Below are positions 1-9,006 of a stretch of DNA of 64,000 bases, piece after piece. The DNA lies in IMG/VR virus record IMGVR_UViG_3300043775_001610, positions 1 through 64,000 of that record. One strand, given 5' to 3'. The stretch's first letter is position 1. Every line of letters begins with the position of its first letter. Source of the stretch: a virus. The notes under the pieces are model-generated. The model saw nothing but the letters and a program-made list of their open reading frames with translations. It was not told the origin of the DNA and did no database searches. A program made the position numbers and the translations under genes.

Positions 1-116
1 TTGTTTTTATTGTAGTGGTGACCGCAAAAAGCTAACTCACCATCTACTAGTTTAACTAGATACATTGCATCTGCTGATCCACATGCATCACATGGAATGA
101 ACTCTCTGTCTCTCAT
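1..116 (-). CDS. small actinobacterial-type Zn-finger protein (DUF7455-like), runs off window
   Basis: Manual translation from ATG 116: MRDREFIPCDACGSADAMYLVKLVDGELAFCGHHYNKN; CxxC...GEL.FCxHH resembles a conserved small actinobacterial protein. Confidence 0.65.
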   Translation of the reverse strand, partial: MRDREFIPCDACGSADAMYLVKLVDGELAFCGHHYNKN

Positions 117-259
117 AGAGAACCGCCCTCAATCATCTCAGAAAGACGGTCAAGAATCCAAGAATCAATATCGTTGATATCAATTTCTGATAACTTCTCC
201 ATTATTTCTTCACGGGCAAACTTATACCCGTCATCCCAGCCATCCTTATAGTCTGACAT
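113..259 (-). CDS. hypothetical protein (48 aa)
   Basis: Manual translation MSDYKDGWDDGYKFAREE...GGSL; AAGGAG RBS; ATGA overlap with next gene. Confidence 0.7.
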   Translation of the reverse strand: MSDYKDGWDDGYKFAREEIMEKLSEIDINDIDSWILDRLSEMIEGGSL

Positions 260-268
260 AATATCTCC

Positions 269-472
269 TTAGTAACCTGTAGTTTCGTAGTCTGATATGT
301 AAGACTCAGTTAAGTTGTACTTATCACGAATCCTACTTACCTTCTCAATACTACCAGTTCCAATGTTGAATGTCAACGGAGACATTACCTGTGGGTCGAG
401 CCCTGTGATTTGTGCATCCCAATAGGCCATCTCCATGGATAGCCTATTAGGAGCAGTTAACTCAAAGTACAT
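269..472 (-). CDS. hypothetical protein
   Basis: ORF track; TAATG-coupled to upstream gene. Confidence 0.7.
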   Translation of the reverse strand: MYFELTAPNRLSMEMAYWDAQITGLDPQVMSPLTFNIGTGSIEKVSRIRDKYNLTESYISDYETTGY

Positions 473-1089
473 TAGTTAACCTCAACTGAATCTACAGATG
501 ATGACATATATGTAATAGGTTCATCATATGATACTGTGTCAAAGTCTGTTTCATGAATTGCATTGATAGCAGACTCCTCGTCACGAGCATTAACTGTAAC
601 TGAGTATTGAACTGTAACTTCTAACTCAAATTCTTGTGTTAGTTCAAAGCCACAGATGCTTGCAATCTCTTCTGCTTGAAACTCAGTCAATGAGTCATCA
701 TCAAGGCCCTCTAATGTAAAGACCTTCATGTTATCACGCAACTGATTTAGAACGCTTGCAGTATTGTAATCTCGTTGGGTTACACGCTGGATGTGCTCTT
801 CTAACTGTGTAATGCGGGCCTTGTTGTCAACTAACTGTGACTCAAGGAATTCTCGTGTCATATAGTGATTATCTGTTGTTGTTTCCATTTTATCCTCTTT
901 CGTTGTTGTTGGTGTAATTGTAGCATGCTCCACTGACAATAATGTGGTCTTGCGTCCGCATGGGCATGTGAGTTCTGTCACACCTGAAGGAAAGCCAAAT
1001 CCATCAGATGATGTTAGTTCTATTAATGAATCGCATTCATCTGGGTCACAGACAAATGTATACTTGCTTGATACTAGTTCGTTGGTCAT
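472..1089 (-). CDS. hypothetical protein with N-terminal Cys-rich segment and coiled coil; second in-frame start at 888
   Basis: ATG 1089 lies 7 nt after TATAAT (leaderless); internal ATG 888 has its own promoter (917-938) and AAAGAGG RBS. Confidence 0.65.
   Translation of the reverse strand: MTNELVSSKYTFVCDPDECDSLIELTSSDGFGFPSGVTELTCPCGRKTTLLSVEHATITPTTTKEDKMETTTDNHYMTREFLESQLVDNKARITQLEEHIQRVTQRDYNTASVLNQLRDNMKVFTLEGLDDDSLTEFQAEEIASICGFELTQEFELEVTVQYSVTVNARDEESAINAIHETDFDTVSYDEPITYMSSSVDSVEVN
917..938 (-). promoter_or_regulatory. TGTCAG-N10-TACAAT promoter (PafBC/RecA-NDp-like)
   Basis: Minus strand TGTCAG TGGAGCATGC TACAAT. Confidence 0.75.
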
Positions 1090-1096
1090 GAAGAGA

Positions 1097-1118
1097 ATTA
1101 TACAGGATCCGACTGACA
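1097..1118 (-). promoter_or_regulatory. TGTCAG-N10-TATAAT promoter, leaderless
   Basis: TGTCAG TCGGATCCTG TATAAT TCTCTTC ATG; near-CRP site TGTGA-N6-ACACA at 1146-1161. Confidence 0.75.
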
Positions 1119-1190
1119 TTATCAAGGATTTCCAGGGAATATTTATGTGAGTCGTAACACACTTTTTGCCCCCTTAGCTTTGAGGGCGCT

Positions 1191-1267
1191 TGGCGATCCA
1201 TAACGGACTTGAACCGTCGACCTCTACCGTGACAGGGTAGCGCTCTAACCAACTGAGCTAATGGACC
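1191..1267 (-). tRNA. tRNA-Asp(GTC)
   Basis: GGTCCATTAGCTCAGTTGGTTAGAGCGCTACCCTGTCACGGTAGAGGTCGACGGTTCAAGTCCGTTATGGATCGCCA: cloverleaf, GTC anticodon, encoded CCA. Confidence 0.95.
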
Positions 1268-1315
1268 TAGAAAAAATTGTGAGCAGTTTTTATTCATGCT
1301 CAGGAATTTATTTAT

Positions 1316-2323
1316 TTAGAACGCAGAAATTAATTTCTTAATTTTATTTTTTTCTGCGGTTAGAATTGGGTCAAACCCTGATGCACCCGCCATGAGTGTT
1401 TCAGAATTTCCACGACCTGAACGATAGTAATCAAGGCGTTCAGTAAGTGCATTGAATGCACCCCACTTTGTTCCCTTGATGTTAGCGTTAGTTGGTGAGT
1501 TGTGATACAACTCGTCAAGCAACACGACTTTGTTTTCCCACTTAGTCAATGCAACTTTAGCAGCATCCTTATCAGGCTTAGGATAAATTGTCTGAATTAA
1601 CTTTGAGAATTCAGCATCAGTGATTGATTGAGAATAAAGAGCCTGAGCCTCTTTCTCGAATTCATCAAAGTACCCAAGAGCAAGCCCAAGAGTTTCACGA
1701 GCAACTTGGATGCGACCTTCAACAGATTGCGTGTGGCGAATCTTGAAAGATTGCTTAGCATTCTTCATTGCAAGGTTAAGAGTGTTTTGGCATACAACAC
1801 GAACAGGAGTAACAGCAGCCTGAACAGCAACTGAGCCATCGTGTGAAGTCCAAACAATTAGATACAACTTTGTTGCATCGTTTGCGCCTTGTGGGTCAAG
1901 CACCATTGTGCGAGGAATATCCACTGTACCGAATACAACCTTACCGCTACGAAGTGAGCCAGCAGATTCCCAACGGCAATCTGCATTCGCATCGTGAATT
2001 GCATCGGCGAATGCGAATAGTTCCTCATTCTGCACAGGCTTGTAACGCTTTCCAACAGTTGCAAGAACATCAGTTCCATTGTTGAATGGGTTGTCACGAA
2101 TAACTAATTGAGCATTAGATACATCGTTCCATGTTTCGGAGATATGGTCAGTTAGTGGAGACAAGCGAACATTCCAGTTGGAAAGTTTTGCCTCATCTAA
2201 CATCATTTGAGTTGTAACATCTTCATCTTGTGTAAAGATGCGATTTGCAAGGTTGTGCCATGCAGGTGCGCCACGAAGTGCGAATGCAACTTCGCCATTT
2301 TCCATTTCTAGATTATGAGCCAT
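1316..2323 (-). CDS. DUF932 domain protein (phage/plasmid-like TIGR03299 family)
   Basis: MAH..E, PAWH, Y.PVQN.E.F.F, ESAGSL..G..VF, TSHDGS, TPVRVVCQNTL, RHT motifs. Confidence 0.9.
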   Translation of the reverse strand: MAHNLEMENGEVAFALRGAPAWHNLANRIFTQDEDVTTQMMLDEAKLSNWNVRLSPLTDHISETWNDVSNAQLVIRDNPFNNGTDVLATVGKRYKPVQNEELFAFADAIHDANADCRWESAGSLRSGKVVFGTVDIPRTMVLDPQGANDATKLYLIVWTSHDGSVAVQAAVTPVRVVCQNTLNLAMKNAKQSFKIRHTQSVEGRIQVARETLGLALGYFDEFEKEAQALYSQSITDAEFSKLIQTIYPKPDKDAAKVALTKWENKVVLLDELYHNSPTNANIKGTKWGAFNALTERLDYYRSGRGNSETLMAGASGFDPILTAEKNKIKKLISAF

Positions 2324-2354
2324 TTTTTACCTTTCGTTTGTTTGATTAGTTGTA

Positions 2355-2376
2355 AGTATAACAGACCCCACTGACA
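2355..2376 (-). promoter_or_regulatory. TGTCAG-N10-TATACT promoter
   Basis: TGTCAG TGGGGTCTGT TATACT upstream of the DUF932 gene. Confidence 0.75.
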
Positions 2377-2414
2377 TTGTCTACGATTAATTACAATATG
2401 TCCGAATTGATCCA

Positions 2415-2510
2415 TGTGATTAATCTCACAAAATTCCAGGGTTATCCACAAGTGGTCGTAACCCTGTGGATAACCCCTTAGCTTTGCGGGCCAGCTGCAT
2501 ATGCAGCTGG
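2415..2510. promoter_or_regulatory. cassette: CRP-type site, two DnaA boxes, palindrome
   Basis: TGTGA-TTAATC-TCACA 2415-2430; TTATCCACA 2442-2450; TGTGGATAA 2465-2473; CCAGCTGCATATGCAGCTGG 2491-2510. Confidence 0.75.
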
Positions 2511-2520
2511 TGTTGGATCT

Positions 2521-2775
2521 TTACAGACCTAACTCATCCCTGGTTAGTTTTGGATTGCGATTGAAGTTAATAACTTCGGACGGGAGGTAAAGAGCAGTAG
2601 TCTTAGTCTTCTTCAATGTATCATACACATAAGCACGAACATCACCAAAGAAGTTACGGCGATTAGAAAATGCTAACTCAGTTAAGTATTCCTTATCAAC
2701 GCCTTGCTCTGAATAAATTGTTACATCATTTGCTTTGTTTGCATCATAGATTTCTACTCTGAAACGATTTTTCAT
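2521..2775 (-). CDS. hypothetical protein
   Basis: ORF track; AAAGG RBS. Confidence 0.7.
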   Translation of the reverse strand: MKNRFRVEIYDANKANDVTIYSEQGVDKEYLTELAFSNRRNFFGDVRAYVYDTLKKTKTTALYLPSEVINFNRNPKLTRDELGL

Positions 2776-2846
2776 TTTGTTGCCTTTGTTAGTAGTTGTC
2801 CCAAAAGGGAGAGCAGTTTGGCGACATACTCAGGTCGTTGGATTAT

Positions 2847-3269
2847 TTAGAGATAACGAGCAATAGCATTGTAAGTGCTTGTGCTTACTGTTTCCTCATC
2901 TGTCATCTTTAGAATACGAATTGCGTTTTCCAATTCCTCTTTCATCTCATTGTATGAGTGGCGGTGGAGAACTTCGTAGTCCTTCTCAGGCTCTTTAGGA
3001 AAGTCTGACTCATTAACTGTTAAATCAAAATCAACATTAAGTGTCTTGTTCCATGAGCGATAGTTTGTGCGTAGGTTTTCTGCCTTAGCAAAATTAGCCA
3101 TAGCAAACTTTGCTACTTCTTTGCGCCACTTTTCTAAAGCCTTTTCGTGCTTTGCTTCGTTGGCTTCTTGTGATGCGTAATCGGCATTTAACTTTGTCAA
3201 GCGAGTTTCTAGTGCCTTGATTACCTTTGGTGTTGCGATTTTTACGCTAATTGCTTTCTGTCGTGCCAT
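2847..3269 (-). CDS. hypothetical coiled-coil protein
   Basis: ORF track; AAGGAA RBS; own promoter. Confidence 0.8.
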   Translation of the reverse strand: MARQKAISVKIATPKVIKALETRLTKLNADYASQEANEAKHEKALEKWRKEVAKFAMANFAKAENLRTNYRSWNKTLNVDFDLTVNESDFPKEPEKDYEVLHRHSYNEMKEELENAIRILKMTDEETVSTSTYNAIARYL

Positions 3270-3308
3270 TTGTTTCCTTCTTTCGTTGTGGGTTGGGTTG
3301 ATGAAGTA

Positions 3309-3330
3309 ATTATAGCAGGGGGGTCTGACA
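3309..3330 (-). promoter_or_regulatory. TGTCAG-N10-TATAAT promoter
   Basis: TGTCAG ACCCCCCTGC TATAAT. Confidence 0.75.
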
Positions 3331-3355
3331 TTTCTGCGACCCCCCTCCCATTAAA

Positions 3356-3538
3356 TTAAACGCCTAGTAGTGTTTGAGCGGATACGGAAGTCCAACGAGT
3401 TTCCTTGTTGGGCATTTCCAATAGCACACGCACCGAGCCAGATGTTTGTGGGTGGATTTCTTTAATCACACCTGTTTTCTTTGACTTAAGGGTAGTGAAT
3501 AAATCGCCTACCTGATACAACTTGTCGTTGATTGTCAT
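3356..3538 (-). CDS. hypothetical protein (SH3/KOW-like small beta protein)
   Basis: YQVGD...K.TGVIKEI pattern; AGAGG RBS. Confidence 0.65.
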   Translation of the reverse strand: MTINDKLYQVGDLFTTLKSKKTGVIKEIHPQTSGSVRVLLEMPNKETRWTSVSAQTLLGV

Positions 3539-3567
3539 TTATTGCCTCTTTTCTTTGTTAGGGTTGT

Positions 3568-3589
3568 AGTATAGCATTGGGGTCTGACA
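3568..3589 (-). promoter_or_regulatory. TGTCAG-N10-TATACT promoter
   Basis: TGTCAG ACCCCAATGC TATACT; near-CRP site TGTGA-N6-TCACT at 3628-3643. Confidence 0.75.
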
Positions 3590-3634
3590 TTAGTCTAGCC
3601 CTGTCTCAGTATTTGAGAAAGTTATTGTGTGACC

Positions 3635-3898
3635 TTAGTCACTTTCAGGTAGCCAAGCGTGGAGATGGTGCTGCTCGATGATCGCCCACACTGGCGCACA
3701 TGTCTGCCCCTTGTAAGTAATTCCATCAGGCATTTCGATGGTTTCATCCCACATGTCATCATGAGCAAAATCTATTGCTTCGATACACACTGGAACCATA
3801 GAAAGTGGAACGGGTGGGTAATGATTACCCTGTAAGTGATAACCTAGTGCTACCTCTAAATCTAATTCAGTTAAATCTAATGCTGTATTGTATCCCAT
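3635..3898 (-). CDS. hypothetical protein
   Basis: ORF track; HLQGNHYPPVP...EQHHL; coupled to upstream gene. Confidence 0.75.
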   Translation of the reverse strand: MGYNTALDLTELDLEVALGYHLQGNHYPPVPLSMVPVCIEAIDFAHDDMWDETIEMPDGITYKGQTCAPVWAIIEQHHLHAWLPESD

Positions 3899-4101
3899 TA
3901 TTCTGCCACCTTTAGTATTGCGTAAGAGCCGTTAGCATTTATTTCATCAAGAATTGGTTGTAGGCGTGGTGCTACTAAATCTTTTAGCATAGACTCTAGC
4001 ATAAAGATACGAGTGGTTTCATCAAGTGCCATAACCTGTTGAGTTACTGGATGATTGTCTGCAAACTCTGTTACAAACTTTAGATTGTGTTCTACTATCA
4101 T
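3898..4101 (-). CDS. hypothetical protein
   Basis: ORF track; AACGAAAGG leader. Confidence 0.75.
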   Translation of the reverse strand: MIVEHNLKFVTEFADNHPVTQQVMALDETTRIFMLESMLKDLVAPRLQPILDEINANGSYAILKVAE

Positions 4102-4130
4102 TTTTTGCCTTTCGTTGTTGGTATAAGAGT

Positions 4131-4152
4131 ATTATAGCCTATGCCACTGACA
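4131..4152 (-). promoter_or_regulatory. TGTCAG-N10-TATAAT promoter
   Basis: TGTCAG TGGCATAGGC TATAAT. Confidence 0.75.
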
Positions 4153-4189
4153 AATTGTGCAACACGCCCAAGCTTTATCTAATTTATTT

Positions 4190-4265
4190 TGTGATTAATC
4201 TCACAAATTCCAGGGGGTTGTGGATAACCCCCGTAACCCTGTGGATAACCCCGCAGTATTGCGGG
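4190..4265. promoter_or_regulatory. cassette: CRP-type site, two DnaA boxes, CCCGC/GCGGG hairpin
   Basis: TGTGA-TTAATC-TCACA 4190-4205; TGTGGATAA 4219-4227 and 4240-4248. Confidence 0.75.
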
Positions 4266-4387
4266 CCTGCATAGCTATGCATCACTCTGTATATTTATTT
4301 TTATGTTTGATCTTTCGAAAATATTTTTTCTTATTACGAACAGGTTGCGCCGCATTACTGCGGCGCAATTCCTGAATTCGTTTTACT

Positions 4388-4579
4388 TTATCTCGAAGTG
4401 AATTTTGGGACATGATACCCACTCGCTTCGTGAAATCTATTTACATCAAATCGTTCATTATCTTTTGCGAACATTTCCGCAAAATCATTTACCATTTTAG
4501 AAAATAACGCTGGGTGTGCTTTATCGCTTGCGAACTTTAAAATTTCTGCTACTGCGACATAATCTTTTCGTGTCATCAT
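4388..4579 (-). CDS. hypothetical phage protein (MTRKDY..A/DN.RF..F..A type)
   Basis: ORF track; pattern typical of small phage early proteins. Confidence 0.75.
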   Translation of the reverse strand: MMTRKDYVAVAEILKFASDKAHPALFSKMVNDFAEMFAKDNERFDVNRFHEASGYHVPKFTSR

Positions 4580-4779
4580 TTAACTGATACCATTCCTGTT
4601 CTATAAAAAACTTTTGTATAGCATTTGCCTGTTGGCGTGTAAATATTTACAGTTGAGTATTCGTTAGCAAATCCCCAATCGGTGAATAAGAAAAAGTTTT
4701 CCCAAGCACCCAATTCGCTTTCGTATTCTGCTGACCAATGAGGAGCGTGTCCGTCATAAGCACAAGTTAATTTATACAT
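4576..4779 (-). CDS. hypothetical protein
   Basis: ORF track; overlapping stop/start coupling. Confidence 0.7.
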   Translation of the reverse strand: MYKLTCAYDGHAPHWSAEYESELGAWENFFLFTDWGFANEYSTVNIYTPTGKCYTKVFYRTGMVSVK

Positions 4780-4922
4780 TAGTCATTTTCTCCGTTCCAA
4801 AATAGTGAGCCATCATCTACGCAATCGCAAGGTTCGCAATCAAAATCATTATCATCACCAAAAAAGATTACTCCGTGTCCGTGGCAATCTTGGCAATCTA
4901 TTGTTAATACTGAGTTAATCAT
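4779..4922 (-). CDS. small CxxCxGxG/CxxC Zn-binding protein (47 aa)
   Basis: Manual translation MINSVLTIDCQDCHGHGVIFFGDDNDFDCEPCDC...; TAATG coupling at both ends. Confidence 0.65.
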   Translation of the reverse strand: MINSVLTIDCQDCHGHGVIFFGDDNDFDCEPCDCVDDGSLFWNGEND

Positions 4923-5086
4923 TAGTGTTGTTCCTCGCAATCTTTGTCATAGTCAAATCCGCAAAAGTAGCAACCCATAAATTCTAGGTGTTCGATACAG
5001 TAATACTTAAATTGACTTTCATCACAACAAAAATGTTGCTCGTCTGCGATTTCATAGAAATCGGTTTTGTCGATTATGTTTAACAT
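4922..5086 (-). CDS. small Cys-rich protein (54 aa)
   Basis: Manual translation MLNIIDK...HFCCDE...YCIEH...CYFCGF...; AACGAAAGG leader. Confidence 0.65.
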   Translation of the reverse strand: MLNIIDKTDFYEIADEQHFCCDESQFKYYCIEHLEFMGCYFCGFDYDKDCEEQH

Positions 5087-5114
5087 AGTTTTCCTTTCGT
5101 TTGTTTATTTAGTT

Positions 5115-5136
5115 ATTGTATCAGTTAGCACTGACA
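5115..5136 (-). promoter_or_regulatory. TGTCAG-N10-TACAAT promoter
   Basis: TGTCAG TGCTAACTGA TACAAT. Confidence 0.75.
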
Positions 5137-5207
5137 AATTTTGTGAGGGTTCTTACTTACGACATTGGGCGAGGACTCCCTCTAAACTGCCCCTGTTTCG
5201 ATTTTAT

Positions 5208-5420
5208 TTAATCGGAAGTTTTTACGGCTAAATAGCGATAAGTATCTTTTAAATTTAGCGGTGCTGAGTAATGAGGTCTAACCTGAACCTTATAAGTTTC
5301 GCAATCCGCATACCATACGGAATTATCTTTTTCCGCTGAGATGATTTCACCCTTTAATGATTTTGAGTGATAGGTTTTTCCTACAAGTAGGCTTTCGATT
5401 GTATAGACATTTGCTGACAT
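5208..5420 (-). CDS. hypothetical protein
   Basis: Likely start MSANVY at 5420 after AACGAAAGG. Confidence 0.7.
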   Translation of the reverse strand: MSANVYTIESLLVGKTYHSKSLKGEIISAEKDNSVWYADCETYKVQVRPHYSAPLNLKDTYRYLAVKTSD

Positions 5421-5452
5421 TTGAGTCCGCCTTTCGTTTGTTGATAGTAGCA

Positions 5453-5474
5453 ATTATAGCCTATGGCACTGACA
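5453..5474 (-). promoter_or_regulatory. TGTCAG-N10-TATAAT promoter
   Basis: TGTCAG TGCCATAGGC TATAAT. Confidence 0.75.
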
Positions 5475-5522
5475 TTTTCTAATTACTAGCCAGTAATTCC
5501 AAATAATGAGACGCTCAAGCCG

Positions 5523-5648
5523 TGTGATAAAAATCACAAAATCTCGGGCGTGTCGGAAAATTCCAGGGGGTTGTGGATAACCCCCGTAACCCTGTGGATA
5601 ACCCCGCTCTTTTGCGGGCGCATCAACTTTTGTCAAGTCGACACGCCG
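5523..5648. promoter_or_regulatory. cassette: CRP-type site, GACAC motifs, two DnaA boxes
   Basis: TGTGA-TAAAAA-TCACA 5523-5538; GGCGTGTC ~5547; TGTGGATAA 5572-5580 and 5593-5601; GACACGCC ~5640. Confidence 0.75.
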
Positions 5649-5747
5649 TTACTTATTCGAAATCTTTAAAAATTTCTTCAAGCTTTAAGATTTGCTCATC
5701 TGTTAAATGATCAATTTGAATTGATTTTTCAAATCCAAAAAAATCTG

Positions 5748-5963
5748 TCATTCGCTCATCAACCTTTCTAAATCGTCTGCGTTATCTTTCATGTAATTAT
5801 CTTGAAAATCTAAAAGTGCCTCATTGTAAGCAATCGGGTCACAATCTTTTAGAATTTGGGAGGGATAAAAAACAGCGTTACCCATTTCATAGACGGGATA
5901 ACAATCATCAAGCATTTCATCAAATAATTGTTTAATCGCAAAAGTAATTTCGAAATCTAGCAT
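5748..5963 (-). CDS. hypothetical phage protein (FDEMLD..Y...PS.IL..CDPIAY type)
   Basis: ORF track; acidic small early protein. Confidence 0.75.
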   Translation of the reverse strand: MLDFEITFAIKQLFDEMLDDCYPVYEMGNAVFYPSQILKDCDPIAYNEALLDFQDNYMKDNADDLERLMSE

Positions 5964-6124
5964 TATGCGTTTTCCTTATCTTTTAGTATTCCTAGAATAA
6001 TCTCTAATTGTTTAGTAGAAAGAAGTGCTTGAGCACAACCCCACTTAAAGGCTAAATCCATTTCGCCATAGTGTTTTTTAGCAAGGTCGGTTATTTCTTG
6101 CGTTACCTCAAAATTACTTTTCAT
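5963..6124 (-). CDS. hypothetical protein (53 aa)
   Basis: Manual translation MKSNFEVTQE...KENA; coupled to both neighbours. Confidence 0.6.
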   Translation of the reverse strand: MKSNFEVTQEITDLAKKHYGEMDLAFKWGCAQALLSTKQLEIILGILKDKENA

Positions 6125-6294
6125 TTAGTTAAACTCCAATCTGTCCAAAATGGTAAGCGGTCATAGTCATCATAGATGTAAAATCTATCTATGTTCATTT
6201 CGCAAGTTTCGCAAAATGTGTATTGGAAATCTCCGACATTAGAAATGGACTCCATGTGTGGAGTATGTGTATGTGTATTTGTTAGTGTAGTCAT
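6121..6294 (-). CDS. small His/CxxC protein
   Basis: HTHTPH...FCETCE; AAAGGTGG RBS. Confidence 0.65.
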   Translation of the reverse strand: MTTLTNTHTHTPHMESISNVGDFQYTFCETCEMNIDRFYIYDDYDRLPFWTDWSLTK

Positions 6295-6325
6295 TTTGAC
6301 CACCTTTCTTTTTCGTTATAGTGGA

Positions 6326-6347
6326 ATTGTAGCATGGGGGTCTGACA
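6326..6347 (-). promoter_or_regulatory. TGTCAG-N10-TACAAT promoter
   Basis: TGTCAG ACCCCCATGC TACAAT. Confidence 0.75.
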
Positions 6348-6396
6348 TTTCTCTACTTACTAGCCAGTAATTCCAAGATGTGAGACGCTCAGCCTA

Positions 6397-6529
6397 TGTG
6401 ATAAATATCACAAAAATTCTGGGGTTTTCCACAGATGCCCGTAACCCTGTGGATAACTCCCGCAAGATTGCGGGCCAGCTCGACATTGTCAAGCCGACAC
6501 GCCGTTAGGCTAGTGTGACTCTTGCCACA
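6397..6529. promoter_or_regulatory. cassette: CRP-type site, DnaA boxes, GACAC
   Basis: TGTGA-TAAATA-TCACA 6397-6412; TTTTCCACA 6425-6433 (1 mismatch); TGTGGATAA 6448-6456; GACACGCC 6496-6503; near-CRP 6514-6529. Confidence 0.7.
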
Positions 6530-6632
6530 TCTCTCTCATCTCTGCTTTAAAGTCATGCCACACGATCCTCGCCATGTATAGGGCGGGGAGGGCAAGGGAT
6601 AACTGCACTAGTGTAGTAAGTAGTCTATTCAT
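6510..6632 (-). CDS. small membrane peptide (40 aa)
   Basis: Manual translation MNRLLTTLVQLSLALPALYMARIVWHDF... Confidence 0.5.
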   Translation of the reverse strand: MNRLLTTLVQLSLALPALYMARIVWHDFKAEMREMWQESH

Positions 6633-6801
6633 TACGCATTAACCTTATCTCTTAGTGATTGCATAGCGCTATCTATTTGATTATACGCATTAGCGCATGA
6701 GTAGCAATAGGTTTCGGTAATGATACCGCCTAATAGCATGGCATCTATTCCGCTATAAACTAAATCGGTATTGTTGCAGTTAATTACTTTACATTCTTTC
6801 A

Positions 6802-6969
6802 TTATGCGGTCACCTTTATGTCCATTACATTAGCGGTAAACTTTTTACCCTTGCCTAGTTCGCTATCATTAAGCGCATTTATTAGATTGTCGATTGCTTT
6901 TACATCTGTTGCGACATTGTCAATAGAGATTAGTTTAGAGCCTTGCCAAATTGAGTAAGTGATAGTCAT
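6802..6969 (-). CDS. hypothetical protein
   Basis: Likely start MTITYSIWQG after GGGAG. Confidence 0.65.
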   Translation of the reverse strand: MTITYSIWQGSKLISIDNVATDVKAIDNLINALNDSELGKGKKFTANVMDIKVTA

Positions 6970-6971
6970 TA

Positions 6972-7154
6972 TTAGTTCTCCCATGTTAGTTCGTATAGTT
7001 TTGCTAGTGCCTCATCATCTGAGTCATCAAATTCATCTAGTGGAGGTTGTTCCTCATCTACCTCATCAAGGTATGCGTATGCGTCTGCGACATCTGATTG
7101 GATAGTGTCCCACTTAGACACGCTGTTAGTTTCGTATGAGTATGCGTATGACAT
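6972..7154 (-). CDS. small acidic protein
   Basis: ORF track; very D/E-rich. Confidence 0.7.
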   Translation of the reverse strand: MSYAYSYETNSVSKWDTIQSDVADAYAYLDEVDEEQPPLDEFDDSDDEALAKLYELTWEN

Positions 7155-7267
7155 TATTTATTCATCTCCTCTGAGATAGCCTTAGACTTAGTTAGTGCCT
7201 CTAGGGCGATTGCTAGGGAGGCAAGGCGTTGAGCCTCTACCATTTGCTTGTATTCATCTAGTGTCAT
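7154..7267 (-). CDS. small helical protein (37 aa)
   Basis: Manual translation MTLDEYKQMVEAQRLASLAIALEALTKS...; AACGAAAGG leader; own promoter. Confidence 0.6.
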   Translation of the reverse strand: MTLDEYKQMVEAQRLASLAIALEALTKSKAISEEMNK

Positions 7268-7299
7268 TTATTCTGACCTTTCGTTGTTGTTATGTTGTA

Positions 7300-7321
7300 A
7301 GTGTAGCATGGGGGTCTGACA
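7300..7321 (-). promoter_or_regulatory. TGTCAG-N10-TACACT promoter
   Basis: TGTCAG ACCCCCATGC TACACT; perfect CRP-type site at 7350-7365. Confidence 0.75.
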
Positions 7322-7356
7322 AATTGGGGAGGTTAGCCTATCGTGTCGGTGTGATA

Positions 7357-7572
7357 CTAGTCACACTCTCCACAAGGGCATTGAGGAAACTCTCGCTCTT
7401 GCTTGATACGATTAGCAAGAGTCATGACCTTGTTATAGGTCTCGGCACTAGCACCACGGAAGGAAACTAGTTCGCCATTGGCAACCATTTCAGCACCTAA
7501 GCGAATTCGTTGCTCTAGGTCAAGATGACCAAAGCGAGAGTGTTTAATTGTATTTTTATCTAGTGTAGTCAT
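7357..7572 (-). CDS. hypothetical protein with C-terminal CPCxxC
   Basis: Likely start MTTLDKN after AAAGGTGG. Confidence 0.65.
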   Translation of the reverse strand: MTTLDKNTIKHSRFGHLDLEQRIRLGAEMVANGELVSFRGASAETYNKVMTLANRIKQEREFPQCPCGECD

Positions 7573-7613
7573 TTGAGACCACCTTTCTTTAATTTGTTTT
7601 TCTTTATACCTTA

Positions 7614-7710
7614 AGCATAACATGGGGGTCTGACAAATTGCAACTTATAAATGCGTACAATTCGGACATTGTGAGGTAAGTCACAAAAAAATCGTGTGAG
7701 ATAGGTCACA
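7614..7710 (-). promoter_or_regulatory. TGTCAG-N10-TATGCT promoter plus two CRP-type sites at the divergence point
   Basis: TGTCAG ACCCCCATGT TATGCT 7614-7635; TGTGA-N6-TCACA at 7670-7685 and 7695-7710. Confidence 0.7.
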
Positions 7711-7816
7711 AATGACCATTCATTATGGGCGCACTATCCGAAATGTCCGTTTTGCCCAAATCGTGTATCATACATGTAAAAAATATATTAACATTTTCTT
7801 AAATCTGAAAAAGCAG

Positions 7817-7844
7817 TTGACTAGAATATATGGCGGTGTATAAT
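7817..7844 (+). promoter_or_regulatory. sigma70-type promoter, leaderless
   Basis: TTGACT-N16-TATAAT, ATG 6 nt downstream at 7851. Confidence 0.65.
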
Positions 7845-7850
7845 AAGAGC

Positions 7851-8579
7851 ATGGAACCATATGCATCTATAGTTAAAAATCAGATTGATCAAATTCTAGA
7901 AAAAGAACCTAATGCGGTTCTAATTGAAGATAACATAGTTGTATTAAAAAACTGGCTATCAGATGATCTTTGCGACAAACTAGTAAGCCATGTAGAATCA
8001 TTTGGAGAAGATATCTGGTGGGACAGAAATAAAAGAGAATGGTGGCATGGCAAGTTCTTTTTTATAGAAGATCCAGAACTTGATGAAGAGCTAAAACATA
8101 TGCGTATAAGGCTACAGGAGCTCTTTAGACAGGAGCTTTGGGTCGAAAGCATGAACTCTGTTCATAGAATGACCAAGGGGCAGTCTATGTTCTTACATGC
8201 TGATAATTTGTCGGAATCACTAGGTATGGATAATAAATGCGTATTTGGTGTAACACACTATCTAAGCAATTTTGACGGTGGTGAAATATCCTATCCAAAT
8301 GTTAAGTTTATGTATAAACCTGAAAAGGGAGATTTGCTGCTACATCCTGGATTTGAAAAATATGCACACTATACAGAAGAAGTAAAAGGTGATAGGGTTA
8401 GATATATTGTAGCTGGATTTGCTTCACTTCCAGAAGCGCAAGCATTAAGAGAAAATGACCAGCTATATGAGGGTATTAATGCAATTAAAATGTCTAGTGC
8501 TATAACTGGAGAATATGGCGAAAATGATTTGCCAAAGAATTTCTACACTTTGCCATTTGAACATTCGGAAAAAAAATAA
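7851..8579 (+). CDS. 2OG-Fe(II) oxygenase (prolyl 4-hydroxylase-like)
   Basis: HAD...FDGGEI.YP...KPEKGDLLLHPG...H...V.G..RY. Confidence 0.85.
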   Translation: MEPYASIVKNQIDQILEKEPNAVLIEDNIVVLKNWLSDDLCDKLVSHVESFGEDIWWDRNKREWWHGKFFFIEDPELDEELKHMRIRLQELFRQELWVESMNSVHRMTKGQSMFLHADNLSESLGMDNKCVFGVTHYLSNFDGGEISYPNVKFMYKPEKGDLLLHPGFEKYAHYTEEVKGDRVRYIVAGFASLPEAQALRENDQLYEGINAIKMSSAITGEYGENDLPKNFYTLPFEHSEKK

Positions 8580-8812
8580 ATTTAAGTATTGACTTCAATA
8601 AAAGTTAAATGCTACACTTAGTTTGCTTTGTGGGGGCTTACCCTGAAACTCAATATGTACCAGATATAATCTGTGGGTATTTCAGGACTGCTTCTCTATC
8701 TTTCCAAAAAGTTAAAATTTGGGGGGTAGGGGGGCTTTCCTAAAATCTAATATCCCCAGATAAATCATTAAAAAACATAAAGAAAATACATAAGAAAAGG
8801 CGGGATAGAAAG

Positions 8813-8890
8813 ATGAAGAATCTTATTGCAGTAGCCATAATAACTGTCATTACTTTTATCCTTGGCATACTCATACAGATAATAGGCTAA
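8813..8890 (+). CDS. 25-aa hydrophobic peptide
   Basis: MKNLIAVAIITVITFILGILIQIIG; ends just before the tRNA. Confidence 0.4.
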   Translation: MKNLIAVAIITVITFILGILIQIIG

Positions 8891-8895
8891 TATAA

Positions 8896-8970
8896 GGGCC
8901 TATAGCTTAATCTGGTTAAAGCAATTGTCTTATATGCAATCGACTTTGGGTTCAAATCCCAATAGGCCTA
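8896..8970 (+). tRNA. tRNA-Ile(TAT)
   Basis: GGGCCTA/TAGGCCT acceptor stem, TAGCTTAATCTGGTTAAAGC D arm, ATTGT-CTTATAT-GCAAT anticodon arm, GGGTTCAAATCCC T arm; no encoded CCA. Confidence 0.85.
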
Positions 8971-9006
8971 CTTGGTTTCTCATTTAATAAGGAGTATAAT
9001 ACTTAT

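What the first reader, a model, noticed from the sequence alone, without database searches (positions are those of the whole stretch)
917..7635. Early region driven by 11 PafBC/RecA-NDp-type promoters (TGTCAG-N10-TANNNT)
Seen: eleven co-oriented minus-strand copies of TGTCAG, exactly 10 nt, then TA-N3-T, at 917, 1097, 2355, 3309, 3568, 4131, 5115, 5453, 6326, 7300 and 7614. Each sits just upstream of a gene or mini-operon; five continue TGTCAGTG and five TGTCAGACCCC. Known: this is the architecture of the actinobacterial LexA-independent DNA-damage promoter (RecA-NDp, tTGTCRgtg-N8-TAnnnT). It is read through a -26 element by the WYL-domain activator PafBC, which responds to single-stranded nucleic acid. 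Inference: the phage wires its takeover genes to the host DNA-damage activator or a phage WYL mimic, so infection-generated ssDNA would switch on early expression.
Basis: partly seen in the sequence, partly recalled or inferred. Interest (0 to 1): 0.9.

Follow-up and report, generated by a model that had tools for sequence, protein, structure and literature searches.

The report
Lake phage promoters shaped like PafBC promoters
An uncultured 110-kb lake phage of actinobacteria drives its one block of small genes from eleven promoters with the sequence and spacing of the host promoters that PafBC, the single-stranded-DNA alarm activator, switches on, so it probably borrows the host's DNA-damage switch, but neither host nor binding has been shown.

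Summary
TGTCAG-N10-TANNNT occurs 12 times in the window against 0.7 expected, always on the minus strand at 917-7635. Eleven sites are intergenic or gene-proximal; the twelfth (5398) lies in an ORF start. The rest of the 110-kb genome has only one exact TGTCAG form (85739, + strand, no gene context), about the chance rate.

The phage is an actinophage. It encodes WhiB, and its portal is 58% identical to Streptomyces cluster BE phages, which have the same left-arm layout but ordinary -35/-10 promoters.

The motif matches the published PafBC consensus tGTCgg(N10)tA(N3)T, a -26 element plus a -10. It is kept in more than 100 related lake-phage contigs, as one block of 8-16 sites in every genome scanned whole, while the flanks diverge.

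New here: a metagenome scan found the same motif upstream of actinobacterial recA genes. It includes both phage subtypes (TGTCAGTGG, TGTCAGACCC). It also occurs on two low-GC (44-47%) contigs that carry a LexA SOS box as well. The motif is about 300 times rarer in that host DNA than in the phage block.

No WYL, sigma, MotA/AsiA or integrase gene was found in five or six family genomes, so a phage WYL mimic is unsupported.

PafBC dependence, early timing and the host remain inferred. The scan noted this motif before in at least 41 other genomes.

The parts
7614..7635 (-). Promoter P7614, TGTCAGACCCCCATGTTATGCT. It precedes the 71-aa ORF 7357-7572. Two TGTGA-N6-TCACA palindromes lie upstream.
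7300..7321 (-). Promoter P7300, TGTCAGACCCCCATGCTACACT. It heads an operon of five small ORFs (7267 down to 6510).
6326..6347 (-). Promoter P6326, TGTCAGACCCCCATGCTACAAT. It heads four small ORFs (6294 down to 5653). Its first 20 bases (TGTCAGACCCCCATGCTACA) recur exactly in 67 IMG/VR contigs.
5453..5474 (-). Promoter P5453, TGTCAGTGCCATAGGCTATAAT, with no TGn. It precedes the 70-aa ORF 5208-5420.
5115..5136 (-). Promoter P5115, TGTCAGTGCTAACTGATACAAT. It heads about five small ORFs (5086 down to 4282).
4131..4152 (-). Promoter P4131, TGTCAGTGGCATAGGCTATAAT. It precedes ORFs 3898-4101 and 3635-3898.
3568..3589 (-). Promoter P3568, TGTCAGACCCCAATGCTATACT. It precedes the 60-aa ORF 3356-3538.
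3309..3330 (-). Promoter P3309, TGTCAGACCCCCCTGCTATAAT. It precedes ORFs 2847-3269 and 2521-2775. It overlaps a GGGGGGTC/GACCCCCC hairpin.
2355..2376 (-). Promoter P2355, TGTCAGTGGGGTCTGTTATACT. It precedes the 335-aa DUF932 gene (1316-2323). The site is kept at the same place in relatives whose DUF932 protein is only 44-52% identical.
1097..1118 (-). Promoter P1097, TGTCAGTCGGATCCTGTATAAT. An ATG follows the -10 after 7 nt (leaderless ORF 472-1089), and this arrangement is conserved in relatives. It is the only site that also has a -35-like TTGATA at 17 nt.
917..938 (-). Promoter P917, TGTCAGTGGAGCATGCTACAAT. It lies inside ORF 472-1089, ahead of an RBS and an in-frame ATG at 888, which would give a nested 138-aa product.
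1..7572 (-). The only minus-strand gene block of the genome: about 30 small, mostly orphan ORFs, one DUF932 gene and tRNA-Asp (1191-1267). It runs off the left end of the contig. Relatives show about four more promoters beyond this end.
967..7710 (.). Eight perfect TGTGA-N6-TCACA palindromes, at 967, 2415, 4190, 5523, 6397, 7350, 7670 and 7695. Each lies 64.5-95.5 bp upstream of the putative start of a TGTCAG promoter. There are none elsewhere in the genome.
2442..6456 (.). Seven perfect TTATCCACA (DnaA-box-like) sites in four intergenic modules of about 120 bp that also carry hairpins.

Best explanation
The eleven sites are real promoters of one class. Each combines a -26 element (A-W-W-TGTCAG, then TGG or ACC) with a -10 box that usually carries an extended TGn; there is no -35 box. 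They head every transcription unit of the phage's single minus-strand block of small genes.

Their sequence and geometry are those of the actinobacterial PafBC-dependent (RecA-NDp, recA P1-type) hybrid promoters. The most likely mechanism is therefore that the host SigA RNA polymerase reads them with host PafBC wedged between the DNA and sigma region 4 ('sigma adaptation').

On this reading the block is switched on, or boosted, when PafBC is loaded with single-stranded DNA. That signal could come from pre-existing damage such as UV, from resection of the incoming linear phage DNA, or from phage replication.

Shown: the motif, its enrichment, its position before genes, its conservation across a divergent phage family, and its identity with host recA promoters.

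Inferred: PafBC binding, dependence on ssDNA, early timing, and the identity of the host (a low-GC freshwater actinobacterium).
For: (1) Enrichment and confinement: 12 sites against 0.71 expected, all on one strand within 6.7 kb; the other 103 kb hold one exact TGTCAG form (85739, + strand), about the chance rate.

(2) Placement: each intergenic site precedes an RBS and ATG or a leaderless ATG.

(3) Match to the published motif: the consensus is tGTCgg(N10)tA(N3)T, with the hexamer at -23 to -28, a GTC triplet read by PafB R46/R50, and no -35 (PMC8635444). All 11 sites here, and 280 unique sites in relatives, keep TGTC.G with exactly 10 nt. The logo shows no -35.

(4) Actinobacterial host: a WhiB gene at G000:96349-96660 (ORF L069:1453-1764), syntenic with the WhiB of Streptomyces BE phages; portal 58.5% identical to those phages; a leaderless transcript.

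(5) Conservation: at least 140 related IMG/VR stretches carry strand-biased clusters. Each of the 12 family genomes or fragments scanned whole (41-116 kb) has one block of 8-16 sites. Upstream of orthologous DUF932 genes at 44-52% identity, only the motif survives. Some relatives use TGTCGG, the M. smegmatis form.

Of the 80 loci returned, 65 are actinobacterial-type recA. Their subtypes are the same: TGG, AGG, TGC and ACC(C) after TGTCAG, with an A-rich triplet before it. None of 45 unique sites lies in the lower 30% of the allowed distance window. 35 of 65 also have a LexA SOS box nearby.

(7) Low-GC examples: L143 (44% GC) and L150 (47% GC) have an SOS box, then 50-51 nt, then TGTCAG-N10-TAnnnT, then 32-33 nt to the ATG, with otherwise divergent sequence. 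The L143 RecA scores about 600 bits against 1g18/4po1 and 1ubc (mycobacterial RecA entries by my recollection; the tool lists them only as RecA), against about 485 bits for E. coli-type entries. Its nearest Atlas clusters are mostly Actinomycetota.

(8) The motif is not a housekeeping promoter: only 2 extra sites in 388 kb of that host DNA, against 1.64 per kb in the phage block.

(9) No phage alternative found: no WYL, Sigma70_r2, MotA or AsiA, and only sub-threshold hits on a 50-aa HTH ORF.

(10) The phage has a second, canonical promoter class (TTGACA-N17-TATAAT-like) on the plus strand, so the -26 class is a deliberate distinction.
Against: - No host is identified, and pafBC could not be looked for in candidate hosts.
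- The host recA hits were selected for the motif, so they show that it exists there, not how common it is.
- 8 of 11 phage sites have an extended -10 and a near-consensus TAtAAT, which host recA promoters lack. Such promoters can be activator-independent.
- Position +7 after TGTCAG is C in about half of the phage sites but G in 80% of the host recA sites.
- The Streptomyces relatives run the equivalent block from ordinary -35/-10 promoters, so a host-activator requirement is not ancestral.
- Tying first genes to a factor that is inactive until ssDNA appears is a risky design.
Confidence: 0.55

Rival explanations
1. The -26 element is read by an unrecognised phage protein, either carried in the virion or made first from a canonical promoter. 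This protein would redirect host RNA polymerase as T4 MotA/AsiA do at middle promoters. The likeness to PafBC promoters would then be convergence or mimicry of the site, not use of PafBC.
For: Most genes of the block and of the genome are orphans. The phage has canonical promoters that could express such a factor first. Each lineage is uniform in using A or G at position 5 (G000 all TGTCAG; G013 nearly all TGTCGG), which would fit co-evolution with a phage-encoded reader.
Against: No WYL, sigma, MotA or AsiA gene was found. There was only a sub-threshold hit on a 50-aa HTH ORF, and it appears in just 2 of 6 genomes. The sequence, the spacing and even the two subtypes coincide with cellular recA promoters, which convergence would not demand.
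Confidence: 0.15
2. These are self-sufficient extended -10 promoters read by host SigA polymerase alone. TGTCAG would then be an operator or architectural site for another protein, such as a phage repressor that shuts the block off, or another host factor.
For: 8 of 11 sites have TGnTAnnnT with a near-consensus -10. P1097 also has TTGATA at 17 nt. The block is crowded with other protein-binding-like sites: eight CRP-type palindromes and seven DnaA-box-like sites.
Against: Three sites lack TGn yet keep TGTCAG at exactly N10. A strict 10-nt register to the -10 and strict strand polarity are expected of a polymerase-coupled element, not of a free operator. The hexamer is not palindromic.
Confidence: 0.15
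3. The sites work mainly as a sink. Ten to sixteen strong PafBC sites per genome, multiplied by replication, would draw PafBC-polymerase away from the host DNA-damage and defence regulon; transcription of the block would be secondary. This reading does not exclude the best explanation.
For: Site density is about 300 times that of host DNA. DnaA-box-like and CRP-like sites co-cluster in the same 7 kb. PafBC has been reported to regulate phage resistance in mycobacteria, as cited in PMC12848934.
Against: Every site is placed and oriented to drive a gene with an RBS, which a pure decoy would not need. There are no quantitative data.
Confidence: 0.1
4. The motif is a chance product or a by-product of a dispersed repeat, with no function.
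For: Four intergenic modules of about 120 bp are repeated, and the 20-mer of P6326 recurs widely.
Against: 0 of 100 shuffles reached the count. Spacers and flanks differ among sites. The motif survives where the flanks have diverged beyond alignment. Only 4 of the 11 sites adjoin the repeat modules.
Confidence: 0.02

Closest known systems
PafBC-dependent (RecA-NDp, recA P1-type) promoters of Mycobacterium and other Actinobacteria, read by 'sigma adaptation' (PMC8635444; PMC6789036; PMC11804915)
   Same: A 22-nt bipartite motif, tGTCgg-N10-tAnnnT. The hexamer sits at -28 to -23 and the GTC triplet is invariant. There is no -35. Downstream subtypes (TGG, ACC) and an A-rich triplet upstream are shared with actinobacterial recA promoters found here.
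   Different: The sites are on a virulent phage, 8-16 per genome in one block, driving orphan small genes rather than repair genes. Most add an extended -10 and a near-consensus TAtAAT. Position 5 is A in this phage. CRP-type palindromes lie upstream. PafBC dependence is untested.
T4 middle promoters (MotA box at -30 plus -10; MotA/AsiA sigma appropriation)
   Same: A phage promoter class in which an upstream element replaces the -35 and is combined with a host-type -10, marking one temporal or conditional gene class.
   Different: T4 encodes its own activator and co-activator, whereas no homologue was found here (these searches had no positive control). The element sits at -30 with variable spacing, against -26 with fixed spacing here.
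Left-arm promoter/terminator array of Streptomyces cluster BE phages (e.g. Yaboi, Stanwilliamsviridae)
   Same: The architecture is the same: a block of small leftward genes, many with their own terminator hairpin, promoter and ACGAAAGG-type leader, next to RNR, portal and tail genes. Portal and WhiB are homologous.
   Different: Yaboi uses TTGCAT-N17/18-TAGACT (-35/-10) and has only one chance match to the TGTCRG motif in 131 kb.
SOS/LexA-controlled phage genes (DNA-damage-coupled phage regulation in general)
   Same: Phage transcription is coupled to the host's DNA-damage sensing.
   Different: That coupling works by repressor release in temperate phages. Here an activator-type promoter sits in a phage without integrase or resolvase and without LexA boxes.

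Membership tests
PafBC-dependent (RecA-NDp) promoter class | A -26 element tGTCgg with an invariant GTC triplet | tested here: met
   11 of 11 sites read TGTCAG. In 280 unique sites of relatives, TGTC.G is fixed, with A or G at position 5. The consensus comes from PMC8635444.
PafBC-dependent (RecA-NDp) promoter class | Exactly 10 nt between the hexamer and a SigA-type -10 (TAnnnT) | tested here: met
   All sites have N10. No N9 or N11 variants occur in the block.
PafBC-dependent (RecA-NDp) promoter class | No -35 element | tested here: met
   The logo of 280 sites shows no conservation at the -35 position. Sigma-70-type sites are not enriched, 51 against 45 expected. The exception is P1097, with TTGATA at 17 nt.
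PafBC-dependent (RecA-NDp) promoter class | The same motif heads DNA-damage genes (recA) in the host lineage | tested here: inconclusive
   The motif was found upstream of 65 actinobacterial-type recA genes, including two on low-GC contigs with SOS boxes. However, the scan was conditioned on the motif, and the phage's own host is not identified.
PafBC-dependent (RecA-NDp) promoter class | The host encodes PafB/PafC | not testable with these tools
The actinobacterial host is inferred from WhiB and phage kinship.
PafBC-dependent (RecA-NDp) promoter class | PafBC binding, ssDNA or DNA-damage inducibility, and loss of activity in a pafBC deletion | not testable with these tools
   These need reporters, pulldown or in vitro transcription.
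PafBC-dependent (RecA-NDp) promoter class | Transcription start 6-8 nt after the -10 | tested here: inconclusive
   There is only indirect evidence: a conserved ATG exactly 7 nt after the -10 of P1097 in this phage and its relatives, implying a leaderless mRNA. No RNA data were available.
T4-type sigma appropriation (MotA/AsiA) | A phage-encoded activator and anti-sigma co-activator | tested here: not met
   PF09114 and PF09010 gave no match in 5 genomes. The controls rang nowhere, so this negative result is weak.
Phage-encoded WYL/PafBC mimic | A WYL domain protein in the phage | tested here: not met
   PF13280 gave no match in G000-G005, three of them rated 100% complete; the controls rang in 7 of 14 genomes.

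The most novel reading that the evidence does not exclude
A whole, abundant family of virulent lake actinophages carries no activator of its own. Instead it uses the host's ssDNA-loaded PafBC as the switch for its first gene block. This would be the first natural case of a virus exploiting sigma adaptation. The same 7-kb block, packed with PafBC-, CRP- and DnaA-type sites, would both read the host's physiological state and soak up these regulators.
Probability: 0.35. Interest if true: 0.85.

Novelty: new variant of a known kind. Interest (0 to 1): 0.72.

Why it matters
PafBC-type 'sigma adaptation' promoters are known only from cellular DNA-damage regulons. I found no paper in the held library that describes them on a phage.

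If a phage family that is abundant in lakes runs 8-16 promoters per genome through the host's ssDNA sensor, several things follow:
- It links phage gene timing to host DNA damage, for example daily UV exposure, or to the entry and resection of phage DNA.
- It gives natural, strong, compact PafBC-responsive promoters for actinobacterial genetics.
- It offers a sequence-based host marker for uncultured actinophages.

The idea can be tested directly in M. smegmatis with existing pafBC deletion strains.

Tried and rejected
- Megablast of 1-9000 against cultured phages: no match.
- Reading the 3514-aa ORF as an N4-type virion RNA polymerase: rejected; it is a tape measure protein.
- Low GC as a sign of a Firmicutes, Bacteroidetes or gammaproteobacterial host: rejected on WhiB and kinship to BE phages.
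- Host search via genome contigs. The WhiB query found nothing. The phage RecA query found only phage contigs mis-binned in MAGs labelled Bacteroidia and cyanobacterium.
- The WhiB homologue search returned only phage-type WhiB from metagenomes, without names.
- The G2 actinophage KU886271 is not in the phage collection.
The metagenome records behind L143 and L150 are not held.
- A second IMG/VR scan for unrelated phages with the motif: every locus with a cluster belongs, by size and completeness estimate or by shared genes, to the same family of about 105-116 kb. There is therefore no independent phage lineage to argue for a host-encoded reader.
- A temperate lifestyle or prophage-induction switch: no integrase or resolvase.
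- A LexA box in the phage: none.

Full report
OBSERVATION. TGTCAG-N10-TANNNT occurs 12 times in the 64-kb window. All copies are on the minus strand between 917 and 7635. Dinucleotide-preserving shuffles gave a mean of 0.71 and never more than 4. The extra copy at 5398 overlaps the ATG of an ORF and is best taken as chance. Five sites continue TGTCAGTG, five continue TGTCAGACCCC and one continues TGTCAGTC.

The window is the first 64 kb of a 110,252-bp IMG/VR virus record with 37.8% GC, rated 92% complete. Elsewhere in that record there is one further exact TGTCAG form (85739, + strand) and one TGTCGG form (37792), neither with promoter context. Spacings of 9 or 11 nt are absent from the block.

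Nine sites lie 28-41 nt before an ATG with a GAAAGG-type ribosome-binding site. At P1097 the ATG follows the -10 after 7 nt, and that arrangement is conserved in relatives, which implies a leaderless mRNA. P917 lies inside that ORF, ahead of an in-frame internal start.

WHAT THE PHAGE IS. It is a siphovirus with a 3514-aa tape measure protein, a portal, a protease and a ribonucleotide reductase. It also encodes DnaB, primase, DnaE and RecA.

Its portal is 58.5% identical to those of Streptomyces cluster BE phages (Stanwilliamsviridae). It encodes a WhiB protein, a family confined to actinobacteria and their phages. That WhiB is syntenic with the WhiB of the BE phages; every cultured-phage hit is a Streptomyces, Mycobacterium or Rhodococcus phage, apart from one record named only 'Bacteriophage'.

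Streptomyces phage Yaboi has the same layout. It has a leftward block of small genes, many with a terminator hairpin, a promoter and an ACGAAAGG-type leader, followed by rightward RNR, portal and tail genes. Yaboi's promoters, however, are ordinary TTGCAT-N17/18-TAGACT, and its 131 kb hold a single chance match to the TGTCRG motif.

Everything in our genome from 7830 to the right end is on the plus strand. Some intergenic regions there have canonical TTGACA-N17-TATAAT-like promoters, for instance before whiB. The phage therefore has two promoter classes, and the TGTCAG class is reserved for the minus-strand block.

The genes of that block are nearly all orphans. The only family hit is a 335-aa DUF932 protein. 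No integrase or resolvase was found in five genomes of the family, so the phage is probably virulent.

THE MOTIF IN RELATIVES. The first 20 bases of P6326 (TGTCAGACCCCCATGCTACA) occur exactly in 67 IMG/VR contigs with 34-40% GC. Together these hold 454 strongly strand-biased matches to the general motif. All of them share early-gene homologues with our phage. A second scan with a different variant added about 60 further loci with clusters.

In each of the 12 family genomes or fragments scanned whole (41-116 kb), the sites form one co-oriented block of 8-16 sites. By comparison with G001, our contig lacks about four sites beyond its left end.

The logo of 280 unique sites reads A-W-W-TGTCAG-(T/A)(C/G)(C/G)-N4-TG-n-TAnAAT-T and shows no -35. 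Upstream of orthologous DUF932 genes that are only 44-52% identical, the flanks cannot be aligned, yet TGTCAG-N10-TAtAnT sits at the same place. Some lineages (G013, part of G012) use TGTCGG instead.

COMPARISON WITH PafBC PROMOTERS. ChIP-seq in M. smegmatis gave the 22-nt consensus tGTCgg(N10)tA(N3)T. Cryo-EM placed the 5' part at -23 to -28, the '-26 element'. There, PafB R46 and R50 read the two guanines of a GTC triplet that is almost invariant across actinobacteria. PafBC inserts between the DNA and SigA domain 4 at promoters that lack a -35, and a 12-nt ssDNA increases PafBC retention (PMC8635444). The RecA-NDp motif extends beyond mycobacteria (PMC8223512). The phage sites meet every sequence criterion of this class.

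HOST SIDE (new here).

Sixty-five of the 80 loci encode actinobacterial-type RecA (…DREKALExALAQIxxQFGKGSVMRLG…) on DNA of 44-74% GC. Their promoters show the same continuations after TGTCAG as the phage: TGG, AGG, TGC and ACC(C), for example TGTCAGACCCCCGCCCTAGCGT. They also share an A-rich triplet before the hexamer, even in genomes of about 65% GC.

None of the 45 unique sites falls in the lower 30% of the allowed distance window, so their position is constrained. Thirty-five of the 65 loci have a LexA box (TCGAAC-N4-GTTCG) nearby. That is the known dual control of recA.

Two loci are low-GC: L143 at 44% and L150 at 47%. Both have TCGAACACTTGTTCGA, then 50-51 nt, then TGTCAG-N10-TAnnnT, then 32-33 nt to the ATG, with otherwise divergent sequence. 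The L143 RecA scores about 600 bits against PDB entries 1g18/4po1 and 1ubc, which by my recollection are mycobacterial RecA (the tool lists them only as RecA). It scores about 485 bits against E. coli-type entries. Its nearest Atlas clusters are mostly Actinomycetota.

In the 388 kb of these 65 loci there are only two further matches, or 0.005 per kb, against 1.64 per kb in the phage block. The motif is thus a special promoter class in actinobacteria, not a housekeeping one.

One caveat applies to all of this. The scan was conditioned on the motif, so it shows presence, position and subtype, not frequency.

IS THERE A PHAGE-ENCODED READER? None was recognised.
- No WYL domain in six genomes of the family.
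- No Sigma70_r2.
- No MotA or AsiA, though these searches had no positive control.
- For HTH_11 and Sigma70_r4, only sub-threshold hits on a 50-aa ORF at G000:84626-84721, seen in 2 of 6 genomes.

An unrecognisable factor cannot be excluded, because most genes are orphans.

MECHANISM AND ITS WEAK POINTS. The best-supported reading (0.55) is that host SigA polymerase reads these promoters with host PafBC, so that the block responds to ssDNA-activated PafBC. The following points are inferred and not shown:
- that the host has pafBC;
- that PafBC binds these sites;
- that the block is early, which rests only on analogy with the BE left arm and on the small orphan genes;
- what supplies the ssDNA.

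Several points count against strict dependence. Eight of the 11 sites add an extended -10 (TGn) and a near-consensus -10, which host recA promoters lack. About half of the phage sites have C where 80% of host recA sites have G. The Streptomyces relatives manage with ordinary promoters.

The rivals are a phage-encoded reader (0.15), self-sufficient extended -10 promoters with TGTCAG as an operator (0.15), and a regulator sink, which is not exclusive of the best explanation (0.1). Chance is excluded.

PRIOR WORK. Searches of the held library for PafBC with phage, RecA-NDp, and pafBC with mycobacteriophage found no report of such promoters on a phage. One paper cites work saying that PafBC regulates phage resistance in mycobacteria.

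This scan has noted the same motif before in at least 41 other genomes, and follow-up reports reached similar readings. Those are unchecked AI notes and are not counted here as evidence.

VERDICT. This is a new variant of a known promoter class, in an unexpected place, and it can be tested with existing mycobacterial tools.

Noticed in passing
window 967-7710: Eight perfect TGTGA-N6-TCACA (CRP/GlxR-type) palindromes against 0.08 expected. All lie in the promoter block, each 64.5-95.5 bp upstream of the putative start of a TGTCAG promoter, at steps of roughly 10 bp. There are none elsewhere in the 110-kb genome.
   Followed up: partly
window 2442-6456: Seven perfect TTATCCACA (DnaA-box-like) sites against 0.85 expected. 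Six form pairs 21-23 bp apart (the seventh, 6448, has no perfect partner), inside four repeated intergenic modules of about 120 bp (about 2400-2520, 4180-4270, 5520-5640, 6370-6500) that also carry G+C hairpins.
   Followed up: partly
window 472-1125: P1097 gives a leaderless ORF (472-1089), with the ATG 7 nt after the -10; this is conserved in relatives. P917, with its own RBS and an ATG at 888, lies inside that ORF in the same frame. Two nested products of 205 and 138 aa are therefore predicted.
   Followed up: partly
window 7817-7844; G000:71275-71362, 96063-96134, 106373-106641: Canonical TTGACA-N16/17-TATAAT-like promoters on the plus strand, one of them directly before whiB. This is a second promoter class, distinct from the TGTCAG class.
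   Followed up: partly
G013 (IMGVR_UViG_3300042448_000816) and G012: Related phages use TGTCGG (TGTCGGTGG, TGTCGGTAGG), the published M. smegmatis form, at nearly all sites, whereas this phage uses only TGTCAG. The choice is uniform within a lineage.
   Followed up: no
L073, L074, L075: Contigs of this phage family, including one of 109,918 bp, are binned in public MAGs labelled 'Bacteroidia bacterium' and 'uncultured cyanobacterium'. This is probably mis-binning and should not be read as host evidence.
   Followed up: partly
L143:5548-5700 and L150:700-860 (minus strand): recA genes of low-GC (44-47%) actinobacteria from metagenomes carry a perfect LexA box, TCGAACACTTGTTCGA, 50-51 nt upstream of a TGTCAG-N10-TAnnnT promoter. 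This is the mycobacterial dual recA control, found in streamlined lake-type genomes.
   Followed up: partly
G000:84626-84721 (+): A 50-aa ORF with sub-threshold HTH_11 and Sigma70_r4 hits, seen in 2 of 6 family genomes. It is the only hint of a small phage DNA-binding protein.
   Followed up: no
window 1191-1267 and 8896-8971; G000:87.6-89.5 kb: tRNA-Asp(GTC) sits inside the promoter block, between the DUF932 gene and P1097. tRNA-Ile(TAT) lies just beyond the block. What look like further tRNA genes (not scanned with ARAGORN) cluster near 88-89 kb.
   Followed up: no
window 3309-3352: GGGGGGTC and GACCCCCC form an 8-bp inverted repeat that spans the TGTCAG of P3309. A terminator-like hairpin of the upstream gene therefore overlaps the -26 element.
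   Followed up: no
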